Positions 25,077 to 36,919 of a DNA stretch of 64,000 nt are shown piece by piece. How positions within the stretch are numbered: the first letter of the stretch is position 1; each line of letters opens with the position of its first letter. Under the pieces are notes generated by a model. The model ran no database searches, had not been told where the DNA came from, and saw nothing but the letters and a program-made list of their open reading frames with translations. The stretch comes from Paenibacillus chungangensis. Its GTDB lineage: Bacteria > Bacillota > Bacilli > Paenibacillales > Paenibacillaceae. The stretch lies in contig NZ_JBHTJZ010000011.1 of assembly GCF_042675905.1 (NCBI RefSeq), positions 54,636-118,635 of the forward strand, read 5' to 3'. The position numbers were made by a program, and so were the translations under genes.

Positions 25077-25110
25077 AATGAAGTCTTGAAGTGAACTTCA
25101 AGACTTCATT
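25077..25110. repeat. Perfect 15-bp-arm palindrome (hairpin) in an AT-rich core between the two repeat arrays
   Basis: aatgaagtcttgaag-tgaa-cttcaagacttcatt. The arms are exact reverse complements. Confidence 0.7.
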
Positions 25111-31502: not shown

Positions 31503-32498
31503 TCAGCCGGAACACAGCGTCTCGTTCTCGTCCATCAACTTCGCCGTATTCAGCAAGCTGCGGGTGGAAGCCGTCTCCTCCCTGCGAGTAATCAGATTCG
31601 CCTGCGCTCGCTTCTCCGCCAGCAGCACCGTGTTCAGAATATCCTTCACCTCGCCGGGCAATATGATATCCTTCAGCCCAGCCGACAGAAACTGGATGCC
31701 GTAATCGCCGCTCTTCTTCTCCAAGCGCTCCAGCACGAACGCGCCGATCTCCTGCTTCATCCGCAGCATATCGTCCAGCTTCATCGTCCCCACATACTCC
31801 CGCAGAATAAGCTGCAACAAGATGTACACCTGATCCTCTAGATGCTTCACTTCCAGTGCCTGGAGCGGATTGACGACCCGATATTGGCAGACAAAATTGA
31901 GCCTTAGCGTCACTTTGTCCTCCGTCATCAGTTCTTGTCCGGTCATGTCCAGCTGCTGAATACGCAGATCGGCGGTGCGGACGGCCACTTGCACAGGCCC
32001 CTTCCAGAAGCAGTATCTCCCCGGCGCCAGCTCCCGCTGCAGCACATTGTCGTAGAACAGCAGACCCGTCTCATGGCTTCCCACCTCGAACGATTGCACA
32101 TAACGGGTCAATCGGGGCAATATCGCCTTGTTCATATCGGCGCCTATTTCCGGCTTACGGGTGTCTACTGCAACGAAGTGATGCTTCTTCATCGTGTTCC
32201 AAAATGCATACACGCCCGGCGTCAACAGCCTGGCGAACCGCCCGTCCTCATCATGCAGCACATACTCATGATCCTGCACCTCGACTACCTCAAGCTCCTG
32301 CATCAGCTCGGTATCCTGGAGGAAGACATCCAGCTCCTTGCCAGGTACGAGGAACGGCTGCGCCATGTTCATGGCGAGCATAGACTGTTCCGACCATTTG
32401 GTGAACCGGTATGTGCCCGGCCCCACATGCTTCACATAACTCCCGTTTTTGAACAGCAGCCCTCTCTCATCTCGGCCGATCGTCACTTTTTTCAACAT
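31503..32498 (-). CDS. SPFH/Band-7 (stomatin/flotillin-like) domain protein; the 3' end appears frameshifted (see findings)
   Basis: AAAAGGGG SD then ATG at 32498 gives MLKKVTIGRDERGLLFKNG. SPFH-like core. A conserved-looking tail continues in another frame down to 31375. Confidence 0.6.
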   Translation of the reverse strand: MLKKVTIGRDERGLLFKNGSYVKHVGPGTYRFTKWSEQSMLAMNMAQPFLVPGKELDVFLQDTELMQELEVVEVQDHEYVLHDEDGRFARLLTPGVYAFWNTMKKHHFVAVDTRKPEIGADMNKAILPRLTRYVQSFEVGSHETGLLFYDNVLQRELAPGRYCFWKGPVQVAVRTADLRIQQLDMTGQELMTEDKVTLRLNFVCQYRVVNPLQALEVKHLEDQVYILLQLILREYVGTMKLDDMLRMKQEIGAFVLERLEKKSGDYGIQFLSAGLKDIILPGEVKDILNTVLLAEKRAQANLITRREETASTRSLLNTAKLMDENETLCSG

Positions 32499-33127
32499 AA
32501 TGCTTGCACCCCTTTTCAATTTCATTGATAGCAAAATATCATTTCAAGGCTGGAATAGCCCTATTCAGCAAAATCGTCATCTGGTCGACCGCGCTGCGGG
32601 AATGATCCTGCCTTGCAAGGCGGAATACGGTTTAAGGGGGAGAGCGGCATCCCATTGACTGCCCCGTAGACTGACGGCCCTCGAAGCCCGACTTCGGTTC
32701 TTAACCCATCTGTGTCCGTGACAGCTTGCCGGAAGACGCTTCTCTTCCCCGGTATCCACCGATTGCGAAGCCCGCTCGGCAGTGGACAGCGGCATGGCCG
32801 CTATCCTGATCATTTCCGCGCAAAGTCTCTTCATCATCCATTCATTGTTCTCGATTGAAAGTCGAGTACTCTACCATGAGTGTATCGCCCTGAATGCGAC
32901 CGGGAATCGAACCCGAGACCAATATCCCACATATTGGAGGTTAGCGCCCCGCAATCCATACAGCATACAAGCGCACAGAGTGCGCCTGCACTGCGGAACC
33001 TAGTGATGTTCCTGCCCGGGTATGCCGCTGACAGACTGCTAACCGAAATCTATCATGAAAATCTCTTCTGGAGATTGTTCATTCCTTCATAATCAAAACT
33101 CGCTTCGGAAATGGTTGGTTTTATCGC

Positions 33128-34553
33128 CTAAACACCCTTCACTACCGCTAACGGCTTACACTTCGCCACAACATCCGCGAGCATAGCGCCCGTGACGCTG
33201 TCAATGATCTGATCGACATCCTTGTAAGCCTGCGGACATTCATCCAGTATCGTCTCCAGCGTGCGGTGGTTGACCAGTACTTCTTCCTCGGTGCCCACCT
33301 TCATGGATTGACGGAATTCATCCACCGTGACTAGCTCCTTCGTCGCCCGGCGGGATCGGATACGGCCGGCGCCATGGCAGATGGAGTAAAAGTTCTTCGC
33401 GCCTTCCTCCCGGCCGACCATAATATACGAGGCGGTGCCCATGGAGCCCGGTATGAGAGCTGGATGGCCCGTCGTCTTGTAAGCCGGCGTGTTCAGGAAG
33501 TGTCCCGGCGGCAGTGCGCGCGTCGCTCCCTTGCGATGCACCAGCATAAGCTCCTTGCGGTGAAATTCCTGCAGTGCATAATTATGCATCAGATCGTACA
33601 GCACCGGCAGCTCCATCTTCGCATCCAGCACATCGCGGAACGCCTGCTGCACGCCGAAAGCGATCATATGCCGGTTGCTGACGGCGAAGTTCAGTGCGGA
33701 GTACATCAGATTCAGATACCGCTTGCCTTCCGCGCTTGCGACAGGGGCATAGATCAATTGCGGGTCAGGATTCGTAATGCCCCAAGCGTCCATAGCCGCC
33801 TTGATCTCTTTATTATGCTCGCGGCCCACCATCGCGCCCCATGCTCGAGAGCCGGAATGAATCATGACGACAACCTGCCCGTCGAACATGCCCCATTGCT
33901 CTGCAAGCTGCCGCATACCTTCCGGTATTTCCAACGCTTGCAGCTCGATGAAGTGATTGCCGCCCAAAATCCGCAAGCGAGCCCAGTTGCCCGTGGGCAT
34001 GCTTGCGGATTTTGGGCGGCAGCTGCTCCAGATACTGCTGATCGTATGCAAAGGCTGCATGCTCGACATGCGTCAGCCAGCGCTCGTTCGGCACATATTT
34101 CTCCGGCAGTCCCTTCAGCCCGTGGCGGACTACCTCCATAATGTCGATATCTGCGTAATTTGTATTTGTCCGCTCATTCGTCGGGACGTATTGCTCAATC
34201 GCGTTCATGATCGCTCTGCGCAAGCTCTTATCCATCAGATCCCGCTTATGCAGCGGGGTAAGGTGGACCCTCATGCCGCAGCCGATATCGGAGCCGACGA
34301 TCGATGGCGATACGCAGCCATCCTTCATTCGCCATACCGCCGTCGTGCCTATGCACGTTCCGACGCCCACATGAGCGTCCGGCGTATAGCTGATATATTG
34401 GTTGCGCGGAATGCGCAGGTTATTGTCCGCCATCTCGTACACTTTGCCCTCGAACGTACCGAACACTTCCTCGTTAGCGAAGACATGCAGCTTGCCATTG
34501 TTTAGTTCCCATTCGTAGTGATTATTGCCGTGGTATTTATATTGATGGTTCAT
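33128..34553 (-). pseudogene. rtcB: RNA-splicing ligase RtcB, disrupted by a frameshift (two overlapping ORFs in frames 2 and 1)
   Basis: N-terminal part MNHQYKYHGNNHYEWELNNGKLHVF...KIRKHAHGQLGSL runs in the frame ending 34748. The remainder ILGGNHFIELQ...KPLAVVKGV runs in the frame of 33128..34069. The GGNHF(I/L)E metal-site motif and the C-terminal VVKG are RtcB hallmarks. SD GGGAGGAA precedes ATG at about 34553. Confidence 0.6.
33957..34021. repeat. Perfect 21-bp inverted repeat inside rtcB at the frameshift point
   Basis: tgccgcccaaaatccgcaagc (33957..33977) and gcttgcggattttgggcggca (34001..34021) are exact reverse complements separated by 23 nt. Confidence 0.8.
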
Positions 34554-34803
34554 CGTGTTGATTCCTCCCGTTACACTCCCGCGGTCATCTGGGGTGGCGT
34601 ATGCATTACACAGCCAGCTTCTTATCTTTGCCAGCCGCCCGCCGCTCGCTCTTCCCCGCTTGCCGCTTCCTGTTGCCTCTATGATGCCTGAATTCTCCTC
34701 CTGCGAACATGGTGAAAGTATTACGACTTGGCAAATTTCTGCACGCATTTACTCCCTTCTTCTTCTCCTGCTACAATAGTCTGGAAAGGAGCGATGTAGG
34801 CGG

Positions 34804-36123
34804 ATGGCCAGAGAAAGCTTCGATAGAGAGATTCAATACTTGCGCATGCTGGCGCTCACTAGCGGCGCATACAACCGCCAGCAGTATGCGGAGCGCCTCG
34901 GCATCTCTGTGCATACATACGACAAGATGGCCCGGCGTCTGAAGGAGATCGCAAGCACCGTTCAGCAAGCGGGACCGGATAAGGCCGACAAGGACTTCGG
35001 CGATATGCTGCGCTACAGCTATCCCGATTCCGCGGATCCCATGCTGCTGTTCCTGTTCCGGGGGAAATCGTTGAAGGAATCCGAAAGCCAGCGCTTGTCT
35101 CTTCTGCTTACGGCCATGCAGGACAGCCCGCAGACTGCGCTCCAGCTGCTGGACATCTGCTGCGAGGGAATGGATGAAGTTCTTTCCTTACCGGACGAGA
35201 AGACGATTCGCGGCGACCTGAAGTATCTGGAGGGTGTCGGTGTTATTCAGAAGCTGGGAAGCTCGCGTCCGTATCGCTATCAGCTGCGCAACGACTGGAT
35301 CAGCGAGCTGACTGCGGACGAGCTGCTGGACCTGTACGATTTCGTCGACATTATGGCCAACACCCAGCTCCCCTCCGTGCAGGGCTATCTGCTTCGGGAC
35401 AGTCTGAAGAAGCAACTGCTTCGGGACGGCTTCAAGGATGATCACGACGGGCTTGAAGCCGCGTTGTACAAATACCATTTCTACTCCCGCATTCTGGACG
35501 AAGCTCATCTGTTCAGCCTGCTGCAAGCGATCGAGGAGCGGCGCCGCGTCTCTTTCCTGTACTTCACCCCGAAGCGCGAGACAAGCTACGCCTCCCGCAA
35601 TACGAATCCGCTCTACGAGCGGGATAACATGGGCAAGCAAGTGTCGCTTCTCCCGTTGAAGATTGTCTATGACCATCAGTACGGCAGATGGTATCTGCTA
35701 GGCTTCAGCCGCGGACTGAACGTGCAGAAGTTCCGGATGGAGGGCATCACGCAGCTGGCTGTCGCGGATGTCGTGCCGGAGGACGAATATTTGGAGAAGC
35801 TGGAGCTGCTGGAACGGCGCGTGAAGCATAGCTGGTTAATCGATACGGGCCGCAAGGTGCTCATTCGCCTGAAATTTTACAATCCGGGACCGTCTATCCC
35901 GAACTTCGTGAAGGACCGGGTGCGGCATCAAGGCCAGTGGGGAACGATTACCGAGGAGCAGGAAGAGGGATTCATCTACGAGATTGAAGTGAACGGAACG
36001 ACCGAGATCAAGCCATGGATCAGAAGCTTCGGCTCCAGTTGCGAGGTGTTGGAACCGGCTTGGCTGCGGCAGGAGCTGACCCAGGAGTGGAAGGAGATCG
36101 GAGCATACTATGAGCCTCTTTGA
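34804..36123 (+). CDS. WYL-domain transcriptional regulator (HTH-WYL-WCX architecture, PafB/PafC-like)
   Basis: N-terminal HTH (YAERLGISVHTYDKMARRLKE). Literal WYL motif GRWYLLGFS. C-terminal WCX-like extension. 439 aa. Confidence 0.75.
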   Translation: MARESFDREIQYLRMLALTSGAYNRQQYAERLGISVHTYDKMARRLKEIASTVQQAGPDKADKDFGDMLRYSYPDSADPMLLFLFRGKSLKESESQRLSLLLTAMQDSPQTALQLLDICCEGMDEVLSLPDEKTIRGDLKYLEGVGVIQKLGSSRPYRYQLRNDWISELTADELLDLYDFVDIMANTQLPSVQGYLLRDSLKKQLLRDGFKDDHDGLEAALYKYHFYSRILDEAHLFSLLQAIEERRRVSFLYFTPKRETSYASRNTNPLYERDNMGKQVSLLPLKIVYDHQYGRWYLLGFSRGLNVQKFRMEGITQLAVADVVPEDEYLEKLELLERRVKHSWLIDTGRKVLIRLKFYNPGPSIPNFVKDRVRHQGQWGTITEEQEEGFIYEIEVNGTTEIKPWIRSFGSSCEVLEPAWLRQELTQEWKEIGAYYEPL

Positions 36124-36919
36124 GAAAATATTCAACTATCAAATTCTGTCGCGGCTGCATGACAACGGCACCTTCATGACGACATCTCATGAGCGGAGCT
36201 GGCTGAAGGGGATGCTGGAGCACGAAGCGGCGGACGAAGCCTTGCTGCCGGATACACTGGACAAGCTGAAGCGGCACTTGGCGGAGGAGGCCATGCCGGA
36301 TTGGGATCGGCATCTGCTCATGAAAGCGGCAGGGCGGGAGACGCAAGTCTATCACCCGCTTATTCGCCCGCTGCGAAGAGCGATGCTGAAGGGATGCTTG
36401 CTGCAGCTGGACTACGGCGTGAAGGATGGGCGATGCCATGAGCATGTTGCCGCCCTCCCTTACAAGCTGGAATATTCCATGGTGAAGCGAGAATGGTACT
36501 TGCTCTGGCTTCACGTACGTCTGCGCATGATGATGAGCACCCGGCTTAGCAAAATAGTGGCGTTCCGCGAGACGGAATGCCCGCAAGAACAATATGCGGA
36601 GCTGCTTGCCACCGTCAAGAAGCGGTTGGCAGGCAAGCAGACATCGGCTGTTATCCGCATCGTGCCGGAATATAATGAGGAGCTGTCGCGCATTCTGTAC
36701 GCTTTTTCACCTTTTGAACGCGATATTGATTACGACGAGGAAGCCGGCGAATACCGGATTACGCTCTATTTCGCCAAAGATGAACTGGAATATGTGCTGT
36801 CGAAGCTGCGCTTCCTCGGCAAGCGGGTGCAGGTGATTCAGAATGATCGGCTCATTCAGCGGATGCGCCAGACGGTAGAGTGGGTCATGGAACGATATAG
36901 TGAGGAGAGGGAGTCATGA
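36110..36919 (+). CDS. WYL-domain regulator paralogue, translationally coupled to the upstream WYL gene
   Basis: ATG at 36110 overlaps the upstream stop at 36123. Motif REWYLLWLHV. 269 aa. Confidence 0.7.
   Translation: MSLFEKIFNYQILSRLHDNGTFMTTSHERSWLKGMLEHEAADEALLPDTLDKLKRHLAEEAMPDWDRHLLMKAAGRETQVYHPLIRPLRRAMLKGCLLQLDYGVKDGRCHEHVAALPYKLEYSMVKREWYLLWLHVRLRMMMSTRLSKIVAFRETECPQEQYAELLATVKKRLAGKQTSAVIRIVPEYNEELSRILYAFSPFERDIDYDEEAGEYRITLYFAKDELEYVLSKLRFLGKRVQVIQNDRLIQRMRQTVEWVMERYSEERES

What the first reader, a model, noticed from the sequence alone, without database searches (positions are those of the whole stretch)
33957..34021. rtcB frameshift coincides exactly with a perfect 21-bp inverted repeat, a quasi-palindrome template-switch signature
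The two rtcB ORFs overlap in different frames between 33813 and 34069, and the frame switch maps onto the arm at 33957..33977. The upstream arm encodes the conserved PPKIRKH. The expected junction reads ...GQLGSL-GGNHFIE. About 10 nt (CGGATTTTGG) in the second arm are not accounted for by that expected sequence. This is what happens when an imperfect palindrome is made perfect by intramolecular template switching. Either the gene is recently inactivated or the hairpin caused an assembly or sequencing error. In both cases the hairpin is the mechanistic cause.
Basis: seen in the sequence. Interest (0 to 1): 0.6.

Follow-up and report, generated by a model that had tools for sequence, protein, structure and literature searches.

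The report
rtcB broken by hairpin-templated mutation
An RNA-repair ligase gene (rtcB) in this Paenibacillus genome was knocked out recently by a small mutation that copied one arm of an imperfect DNA hairpin onto the other; this is a clean natural example of a well-known replication error, not a new kind of element.

Summary
It is the longest perfect inverted repeat in the 64-kb window.

Two close relatives with intact genes (96% and 94% nucleotide identity) give the ancestral state. It was a weak quasi-palindrome, TGCCGCC-CAAAATCCG-CAAGC ... GCTTG-GC-GGCGGCA, encoding LPPKIRK ... GSLGGGNHF.

In the window the 2-nt 'GC' has become 'CGGATTTTG'. That is the exact reverse complement of the 9 nt in the other arm.

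This is the classic signature of quasi-palindrome correction by replication template switching (Ripley 1982). All 81 relatives keep the active-site motif intact.

The rest of the gene shows strong purifying selection (dN/dS 0.05) and no other lesion, so the inactivation is recent.

I found no independent copy of the mutant allele, and no reads are available. An in-vitro artefact is therefore unlikely but not excluded. The mechanism is already known, so interest is modest.

The parts
33128..34553 (-). rtcB (RNA 3'-phosphate/5'-OH ligase) pseudogene. It is 1426 nt, that is 1419 nt plus 7. ATG at 34553, original stop at 33128-33130.
   Evidence: Pfam PF01139 matches both halves. tblastn of the repaired protein places aa 1-193 at 34553-33975 and aa 195-472 at 33964-33131 in another frame. 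The intact 472-aa orthologues are L001 and L081.
34001..34021 (-). Donor arm, upstream in the gene. In gene sense it reads TGCCGCCCAAAATCCGCAAGC and encodes (L)PPKIRK. It is unchanged from the ancestor.
   Evidence: Identical in L081. L001 has one lineage-specific A (Arg to His). Inverted-repeat arm.
33958..33978 (-). Recipient arm, downstream in the gene. In gene sense it reads GCTTG-CGGATTTTG-GGCGGCA. The ancestral form was GCTTG-GC-GGCGGCA, encoding (S)L-G-G-G.
   Evidence: Alignments to L001 and L081.
33965..33973 (-). The mutation itself. Nine templated nt (CAAAATCCG on the + strand, CGGATTTTG in gene sense) replace the ancestral 2 nt (GC). Net +7 nt, which shifts the frame two codons before the Asn-His of the GxGNHF motif.
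   Evidence: Exact reverse complement of 34006-34014, and each 9-mer occurs only once within 33001-35000. A pure insertion cannot explain it: shared prefix 7 plus shared suffix 5 is less than 14.
33981..33998 (-). Inner 5-bp stem (33981-33985 / 33994-33998, GCCCA/TGGGC) and 8-nt loop. This stem stabilises the fold-back of the nascent 3' end.
   Evidence: The minimum-energy fold of the 49-nt nascent strand ending in ...GCTTG-3' pairs CAAGC/GCTTG stacked on this stem, at -8.5 kcal/mol.
33813..33815 (-). Premature stop codon reached by the shifted N-terminal frame. It follows 53 out-of-frame codons.
   Evidence: ORF 33813..34748; translation.

Best explanation
rtcB in this Paenibacillus genome is a recently made pseudogene.

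Its ancestor carried a weak quasi-palindrome inside the coding sequence. The codons for LPPKIRK (TGCCGCC-CAAAATCCG-CAAGC) lay 22 nt upstream of the codons for (S)LGGG (GCTTG-GC-GGCGGCA). The two stretches shared a 7-bp outer and a 5-bp inner complementary block.

During DNA synthesis of the gene-sense strand, the nascent 3' end (...GCTTG) detached from its template. It then folded back onto CAAGC of the arm that had just been made. An adjacent GCCCA/TGGGC stem helped this fold-back. The end was extended using that arm as template, which added CGGATTTTG followed by GGCGGCA. It then returned to the proper template through the GGCGGCA block.

One event therefore replaced GC with CGGATTTTG. That made the repeat a perfect 21-bp palindrome, added 7 nt, and shifted the frame two codons before the Asn-His of the conserved GxGNHF motif, so no full-length ligase can be made.

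Shown: the ancestral state, the templated nature of the change, the broken frame and the recency. Inferred: that it happened in vivo during replication, that the fold-back was within one nascent strand, and that this strand was the leading strand.
For: 1. Polarity. L001 (96.3% nt identity) and L081 (94%) both have the intact 1419-nt gene with GCTTGGCGGCGGCA. L081 also has the window's exact donor arm.
2. All 81 relatives, and the P. horikoshii RtcB structure sequence, keep G[ST]LG[GSN]GNHF with constant spacing.
3. The 9 new nt are the exact reverse complement of 34006-34014, with no direct copy nearby. The chance of a random 9-mer doing this is 4^-9, about 4e-6.
4. The change is complex (7-nt gap plus 2 mismatches). 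It needs at least 2 independent events unless it was templated.
5. Hairpin energy went from -16.0 kcal/mol (reconstructed ancestor, z -1.8) to -34.5 (z -9.3). The required fold-back primer is the minimum-energy fold of the nascent strand.
6. This is the longest perfect inverted repeat in the window and lies beyond every shuffle.
7. Recency. dN/dS is 0.048. The window's branch has 18 synonymous and 4 conservative nonsynonymous codon changes, against 23 and 3 on the intact sister branch. There is no other stop or frameshift.
8. Assembly quality. There are 0 gaps in 1918 nt against L081, and only 3 gap openings in 3835 nt against L001, one of them the hairpin.
9. GC3 skew is +0.169 for minus-strand genes and -0.019 for plus-strand genes, and the plus-strand GC skew is negative in 13 of 15 sliding intervals (overall -0.068). 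The minus strand is therefore probably the leading strand, so the recipient arm is the second arm made on the leading strand. E. coli work reports a strand bias for such events, with the stronger effects on a leading-strand reporter (PMC7202029).
10. The mechanism as described in the literature matches point for point (PMC7202029, citing Ripley 1982, Viswanathan 2000, Dutra & Lovett 2006).
Against: - No raw reads and no second assembly of this strain are available.
- The mutant allele was not found anywhere else: not as a called protein and not as DNA in metagenomes. Its reality in the living strain rests on this one assembly.
- The replication direction is inferred from skew over only 64 kb, and gene orientation in the window is not biased (26 plus, 22 minus).
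- Sequence alone cannot separate an intramolecular switch from a cross-fork switch.
- Loss of function is inferred, not measured.
Confidence: 0.8

Rival explanations
1. The templated change is real chemistry but arose in vitro. A polymerase switched templates at the quasi-palindrome during amplification (MDA or PCR) or library preparation, or a consensus error was made. On this reading the strain's rtcB is intact.
For: Hairpin-forming sequences are known trouble spots for polymerases. The allele is seen in no other assembly or metagenome. The gene is otherwise flawless and under strong constraint, which is also what an artefact in a functional gene would look like.
Against: An artefact must be present in most reads to reach the consensus. 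Random in-vitro switches are rare per molecule unless the input was a single cell or very few molecules. The ancestral complementary blocks are 7 and 5 bp, far below any assembler k-mer, so an assembler cannot invent the 9 nt. It is not a homopolymer miscall. The flanks show no indel noise.
Confidence: 0.12
2. The interruption is functional. The options are a programmed ribosomal frameshift stimulated by the hairpin, a two-piece RtcB, or a reversible on/off (phase-variation) switch of RNA repair.
For: A very stable hairpin sits at the frame change. The C-terminal frame still encodes the full catalytic half from GGNHF onward.
Against: A +1 or -2 shift would be needed. There is no slippery heptamer, and the hairpin contains the shift site rather than following it. 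None of 81 relatives has this arrangement, so it is not conserved. The break removes one Gly from the GxGNHF active-site motif and separates the N-terminal domain from it. No templated route back to the 14-nt arm exists once the palindrome is perfect.
Confidence: 0.03
3. The insert is an untemplated indel plus substitutions that perfected the palindrome by coincidence, or the footprint of an intron or mobile element.
For: In other contigs rtcB is interrupted at exactly this codon by intron-like inserts.
Against: Nine of 9 new bases match the reverse complement of the other arm, a probability of about 4e-6. The insert is only 7 nt net, with no ORF, no terminal repeats, no target duplication and no Rfam hit. 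The intron-like inserts elsewhere are 268 and 1095 nt and unrelated in sequence.
Confidence: 0.01

Closest known systems
Quasi-palindrome-associated template-switch mutations (Ripley 1982 model). Examples are the E. coli thyA hotspot, the lacZ QP5/QP6 reporters, yeast CYC1 and phage T4 rIIB.
   Same: An imperfect inverted repeat becomes perfect. The new bases are an inverted copy of the other arm. The result is a complex frameshift from one event. The likely leading-strand polarity agrees with the strand bias described for E. coli (PMC7202029).
   Different: This is a spontaneous event caught in a natural Paenibacillus genome, not in a reporter. The asymmetry corrected is large (9 nt against 2 nt). 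No genetic dependence (exonucleases, chain terminators, fluoroquinolones) can be tested here.
Short-range template-switch mutation clusters found by comparative genomics. These come from the four-point model in human and great-ape genomes, and from inverted-repeat homogenisation in yeast coding genes and promoters (PMC7954356, PMC8604942, PMC13100816).
   Same: The inference logic is the same. A cluster of differences against close relatives is explained by one inverted copy of adjacent sequence, and the donor is present in the outgroup.
   Different: Those surveys mostly concern eukaryotes and mostly non-disruptive changes. Here the event inactivates a conserved bacterial enzyme at its active-site motif.
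RtcB RNA ligase (PF01139; P. horikoshii structures 1UC2, 4DWQ, 4DWR)
   Same: Both halves match the family strongly, and the repaired protein aligns end to end with the solved structures (E 1e-76).
   Different: The reading frame is broken inside the GxGNHF motif, so this copy is a pseudogene rather than a working member.

Membership tests
Quasi-palindrome template-switch mutation (Ripley model) | An imperfect inverted repeat already exists in the ancestral sequence. | tested here: met
   L001 and L081 have 7-bp (TGCCGCC/GGCGGCA) and 5-bp (CAAGC/GCTTG) complementary blocks separated by 9 nt against 2 nt. The reconstructed ancestor folds at -16 kcal/mol with these pairs.
Quasi-palindrome template-switch mutation (Ripley model) | The mutation increases complementarity between the arms, to perfect or nearly perfect. 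| tested here: met
   The result is a perfect 21-bp stem. Energy goes from -16.0 to -34.5 kcal/mol.
Quasi-palindrome template-switch mutation (Ripley model) | The new bases are an exact inverted copy of the other arm, and that arm is unchanged from the ancestor. | tested here: met
   33965-33973 is the reverse complement of 34006-34014. The donor arm is identical in outgroup L081.
Quasi-palindrome template-switch mutation (Ripley model) | A multi-nucleotide complex change is explained by one event and cannot be reduced to a simple indel. | tested here: met
   The change is 2 nt to 9 nt. Shared prefix 7 plus shared suffix 5 is less than the 14-nt ancestral arm. MAFFT shows a 7-nt gap plus 2 mismatches.
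Quasi-palindrome template-switch mutation (Ripley model) | The event arises during replication, with a strand bias and dependence on 3' exonucleases or replication stalling. | tested here: inconclusive
   GC and GC3 skew make the gene-sense strand the probable leading strand, and the recipient arm is the second one synthesised. Genetic dependence cannot be tested with these tools.
Functional RtcB ligase (PF01139) | Sequence match to the family above Pfam's gathering score. | tested here: met
   65.3 and 307.3 bits for the two halves, against a cutoff of 27.
Functional RtcB ligase (PF01139) | A single uninterrupted reading frame through the GxGNHF active-site motif. | tested here: not met
   The frame shifts at 33965-33973, and the N-terminal frame stops at 33813.
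Programmed ribosomal frameshift | A slippery site, a stimulatory structure downstream of it, and conservation of the arrangement in relatives. | tested here: not met
   There is no X XXY YYZ heptamer, the hairpin spans the shift site, and 0 of 81 relatives share the arrangement.
Intron-split gene (group I or II intron) | An insert of hundreds of nt with intron structure or splice-site rules between two in-frame exons. | tested here: not met
   The insert is 7 nt net, and the window has no Rfam hit.

The most novel reading that the evidence does not exclude
The quasi-palindrome that overlaps the RtcB active-site codons in this Paenibacillus clade could be a recurrent hotspot, in effect a contingency locus. 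It would switch RNA-repair ligase activity off at an appreciable rate, and the null allele would be favoured under some condition, such as escape from a toxic ligation activity or from the WYL-regulated response next door. The present allele would then be one sampled instance and not a one-off accident.
Probability: 0.04. Interest if true: 0.6.

Novelty: new member of a known kind. Interest (0 to 1): 0.3.

Why it matters
The case is useful for three reasons.

- **A clean natural example.** Template switching at quasi-palindromes is mostly studied with engineered reporters. Here both the ancestral state and the donor are preserved in sister genomes, and a single event explains a 9-for-2 nucleotide replacement.
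- **Annotation.** Such complex frameshifts should not be 'corrected' as sequencing errors or read as two mutations.
- **Biology of the strain.** It probably lacks this RtcB.

It does not reveal a new mechanism or system.

Tried and rejected
**Searches for an independent copy of the mutant allele, all empty**
- Exact-product look-ups of the C-terminal ORF and of the N-terminal product.
- A protein search with the N-terminal product including its out-of-frame tail. The best hits were only 74-79% identical and covered the in-frame part only.
- The exact mutant junction in metagenome contigs: 0 hits.
- A gapped pattern allowing any length between the two conserved flanks: 4 hits. Three are chance matches in unrelated genes and one is a distant RtcB (32% identity) with the normal motif.

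**Other checks**
- Rfam over the whole window found nothing, and there are no tRNAs.
- There is no second rtcB copy in the window.

**Readings rejected**
- Programmed frameshifting, an intron or mobile-element footprint, tandem duplication (no direct copy of the 9-mer), and an assembler artefact (the ancestral arms are too short).

**Not possible**

Full report
**Observation**

The window carries an rtcB gene on the minus strand, from the ATG at 34553 to the stop at 33128. It is split into two overlapping ORFs in different frames, 33813..34748 and 33128..34069. Pfam RtcB (PF01139) matches the first ORF over profile positions 13-150 and the second over 152-426. The break therefore falls at one point of the family profile.

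A perfect 21-bp inverted repeat lies at that point. Its arms are 33958-33978 and 34001-34021, separated by 22 nt, and the repeat extends to 28 nt at 93% complementarity. As single-stranded DNA it folds at -34.6 kcal/mol, with z = -8.1 and 0 of 200 shuffles as stable. It is the longest perfect inverted repeat in the 64-kb window. The next longest is 15 bp, and the longest in 20 dinucleotide shuffles is 13 bp.

tblastn of a repaired protein places residues 1-193 at 34553-33975 and residues 195-472 at 33964-33131 in another frame. The frame change therefore lies inside the arm at 33958-33978.

**What relatives show**

A scan of one genome per species found 351 rtcB loci, of which the best 80 were kept. 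The closest is Paenibacillus sp. J5C2022 (L001). Its gene is intact at 1419 nt and differs from the window by 52 substitutions and one 7-column gap. A second close relative, L081, came from a Logan assembly of SRR23324584 through protein P0001. It is intact and differs by 86 substitutions and the same gap.

In gene sense the three sequences read:
- L081: TGCCGCCCAAAATCCGCAAGC-(22 nt)-GCTTG GC GGCGGCA
- L001: the same, with one A for G in the upstream arm (Arg to His)
- window: TGCCGCCCAAAATCCGCAAGC-(22 nt)-GCTTG CGGATTTTG GGCGGCA

With L081 as outgroup, the A in L001 belongs to L001's own lineage. The only change at the hairpin on the window's lineage is GC to CGGATTTTG.

The ancestral and derived arms share a 7-nt prefix and a 5-nt suffix, 12 of the 14 ancestral bases. 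No simple insertion can therefore produce the change. It is a 2-for-9 replacement, net +7.

The nine new bases (33965-33973, CAAAATCCG on the plus strand) are the exact reverse complement of 34006-34014 in the other arm. Neither 9-mer occurs again within 33001-35000.

All 81 relatives from Paenibacillus, Brevibacillus, Thermoactinomycetaceae and others keep G[ST]LG[GSN]GNHF at constant distance from the LPxK... segment. The P. horikoshii RtcB structure sequence does too. The window's state is therefore derived and disruptive.

**Mechanism**

The pattern meets each sequence-level criterion of quasi-palindrome correction by template switching:
- a pre-existing imperfect inverted repeat
- a mutation that makes it perfect
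- new bases that are an inverted copy of the other arm, which is itself unchanged
- a complex change explained by a single event

The model, as summarised in PMC7202029 (citing Ripley 1982, Viswanathan et al. 2000, and Dutra & Lovett 2006), runs as follows. The polymerase stalls. The nascent strand uses itself as template. It then returns to the correct template, leaving a more perfect palindrome.

Here the nascent gene-sense strand ending in ...GCTTG-3' can pair with CAAGC of the arm just made. It stacks on an adjacent GCCCA/TGGGC stem. That fold-back is the minimum-energy structure of the 49-nt nascent strand, at -8.5 kcal/mol. Extension along the donor arm gives CGGATTTTG followed by GGCGGCA, and GGCGGCA allows return to the original template. 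The reconstructed ancestor folds at only -16.0 kcal/mol (z -1.8), against -34.5 for the mutant.

The intramolecular model requires the recipient arm to be the one synthesised second, which fixes the nascent strand as gene-sense. Two observations make the minus strand the probable leading strand:
- Plus-strand GC skew is negative overall (-0.068) and in 13 of the 15 sliding intervals.
- Third-codon-position skew is +0.169 in minus-strand genes and -0.019 in plus-strand genes.

This agrees with the strand bias described for these events in E. coli, where the stronger effects were on a leading-strand reporter (PMC7202029). It remains an inference from 64 kb in which gene orientation is not biased.

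**Age and consequence**

After the 9-nt tract is replaced by GC, the gene has no other stop or frameshift. Its dN/dS is 0.048 against L001 and 0.050 against L081. The window's own branch has 18 synonymous and 4 conservative nonsynonymous codon changes (I>V, A>T, D>E, M>L). The intact sister branch has 23 and 3. There is no sign of relaxed constraint, so the inactivation is recent.

The shifted N-terminal frame runs 53 codons and stops at 33813. The lesion sits two codons before the Asn-His of GxGNHF. From my own knowledge of the P. horikoshii RtcB structures, that His is a metal ligand and the Asn contacts the nucleotide. I did not verify those residue roles here.

No second rtcB lies in the window. 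Some relatives do carry a paralogue next to the gene.

**Real or artefact**

I could not find the mutant allele elsewhere. It is absent as a called protein, as an exact junction in metagenomes, and under a length-tolerant pattern, which gave only chance hits and one distant normal RtcB. Without reads the question stays open. Several points favour a true mutation:
- The ancestral complementary blocks are 7 and 5 bp, much shorter than any assembly k-mer.
- The change is not a homopolymer error.
- The flanks align to L081 with no gap over 1918 nt, and to L001 with 3 gap openings over 3835 nt, the hairpin among them.
- A polymerase switch in vitro would have to dominate the library to reach the consensus.

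I put about 0.8 on a genuine in-vivo event and about 0.12 on an in-vitro or consensus artefact.

**Other readings rejected**

- Programmed frameshifting: there is no slippery site, the hairpin spans the shift site, and the arrangement is not conserved.
- An intron or mobile-element footprint: the insert is 7 nt and has no Rfam hit.
- Coincidence: probability about 4e-6.

**Comparison and novelty**

The mechanism is long established in reporters and natural hotspots. It has been traced by comparative genomics in yeast and primates (PMC7202029, PMC8604942, PMC7954356, PMC13100816). This case is a new, cleanly polarised natural instance in a Paenibacillus gene. It is not a new kind of thing, and interest is modest.

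**Side observations**

In other, phage-like contigs rtcB is interrupted at the very same codon boundary (GGG|NHF). The inserts are 268 nt (L083) and 1095 nt (L082). The L082 insert contains a LAGLIDADG endonuclease ORF. In L083 such an ORF lies downstream of rtcB, outside the insert. Both inserts follow the group I splice-site rule: the exon ends in T and the insert ends in G. Rfam recognises neither, even at E <= 1.

Upstream of rtcB, and divergent from it, lies a pair of genes: a 439-aa WYL+WCX protein and a 269-aa protein with only faint WYL-like similarity. The pair is conserved in 53 of 81 loci.

Noticed in passing
L082:2536-3630 and L083:5592-5859 (related loci, not the window): In two phage-like Logan contigs, rtcB is interrupted exactly after the GGG codons of the GGGNHF motif. 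This is the same codon boundary as the window's lesion. The inserts are 1095 nt (containing a LAGLIDADG endonuclease ORF) and 268 nt (a LAGLIDADG ORF lies downstream of rtcB, outside the insert). In both, the 5' exon ends in T and the insert ends in G, as in group I introns. Rfam gives no hit at gathering thresholds or at E <= 1. A third fragment (P0128) has a tail like that of P0124.
   Followed up: partly
window 34804-36919 (+): Two overlapping genes lie divergent from rtcB. One is a 439-aa protein with WYL and WCX domains. The other is a 269-aa protein with no Pfam or NCBIfam hit and only faint similarity to the first protein's WYL region (E 0.006). Homologues of both sit immediately upstream of and divergent from rtcB in 53 of 81 related loci. 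This suggests a conserved WYL-type regulator pair for rtcB in Paenibacillaceae, in place of the proteobacterial RtcR.
   Followed up: partly
window 32535-33127: About 590 nt between the rtcB stop and the SPFH/Band-7 gene (31503-32534, minus strand) hold no long ORF, no tRNA and no Rfam family. The stretch is conserved at about 94% with L081 at least as far as 32848.
   Followed up: no
L036, L041, L042, L045, L046, L050, L056, L058, L068: Several Paenibacillus loci carry a second, divergent rtcB paralogue (motif ...WHRSHRQLGTLGNGNHFAEI) within 3 kb of the main copy. The window has no second copy within its 64 kb.
   Followed up: no
window 25077-25110 and 2173-2235: These are the next-longest perfect inverted repeats in the window, at 15 bp with a 4-nt loop and 14 bp with a 35-nt loop. 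The first has the shape of an intrinsic terminator stem. Neither was examined.
   Followed up: no
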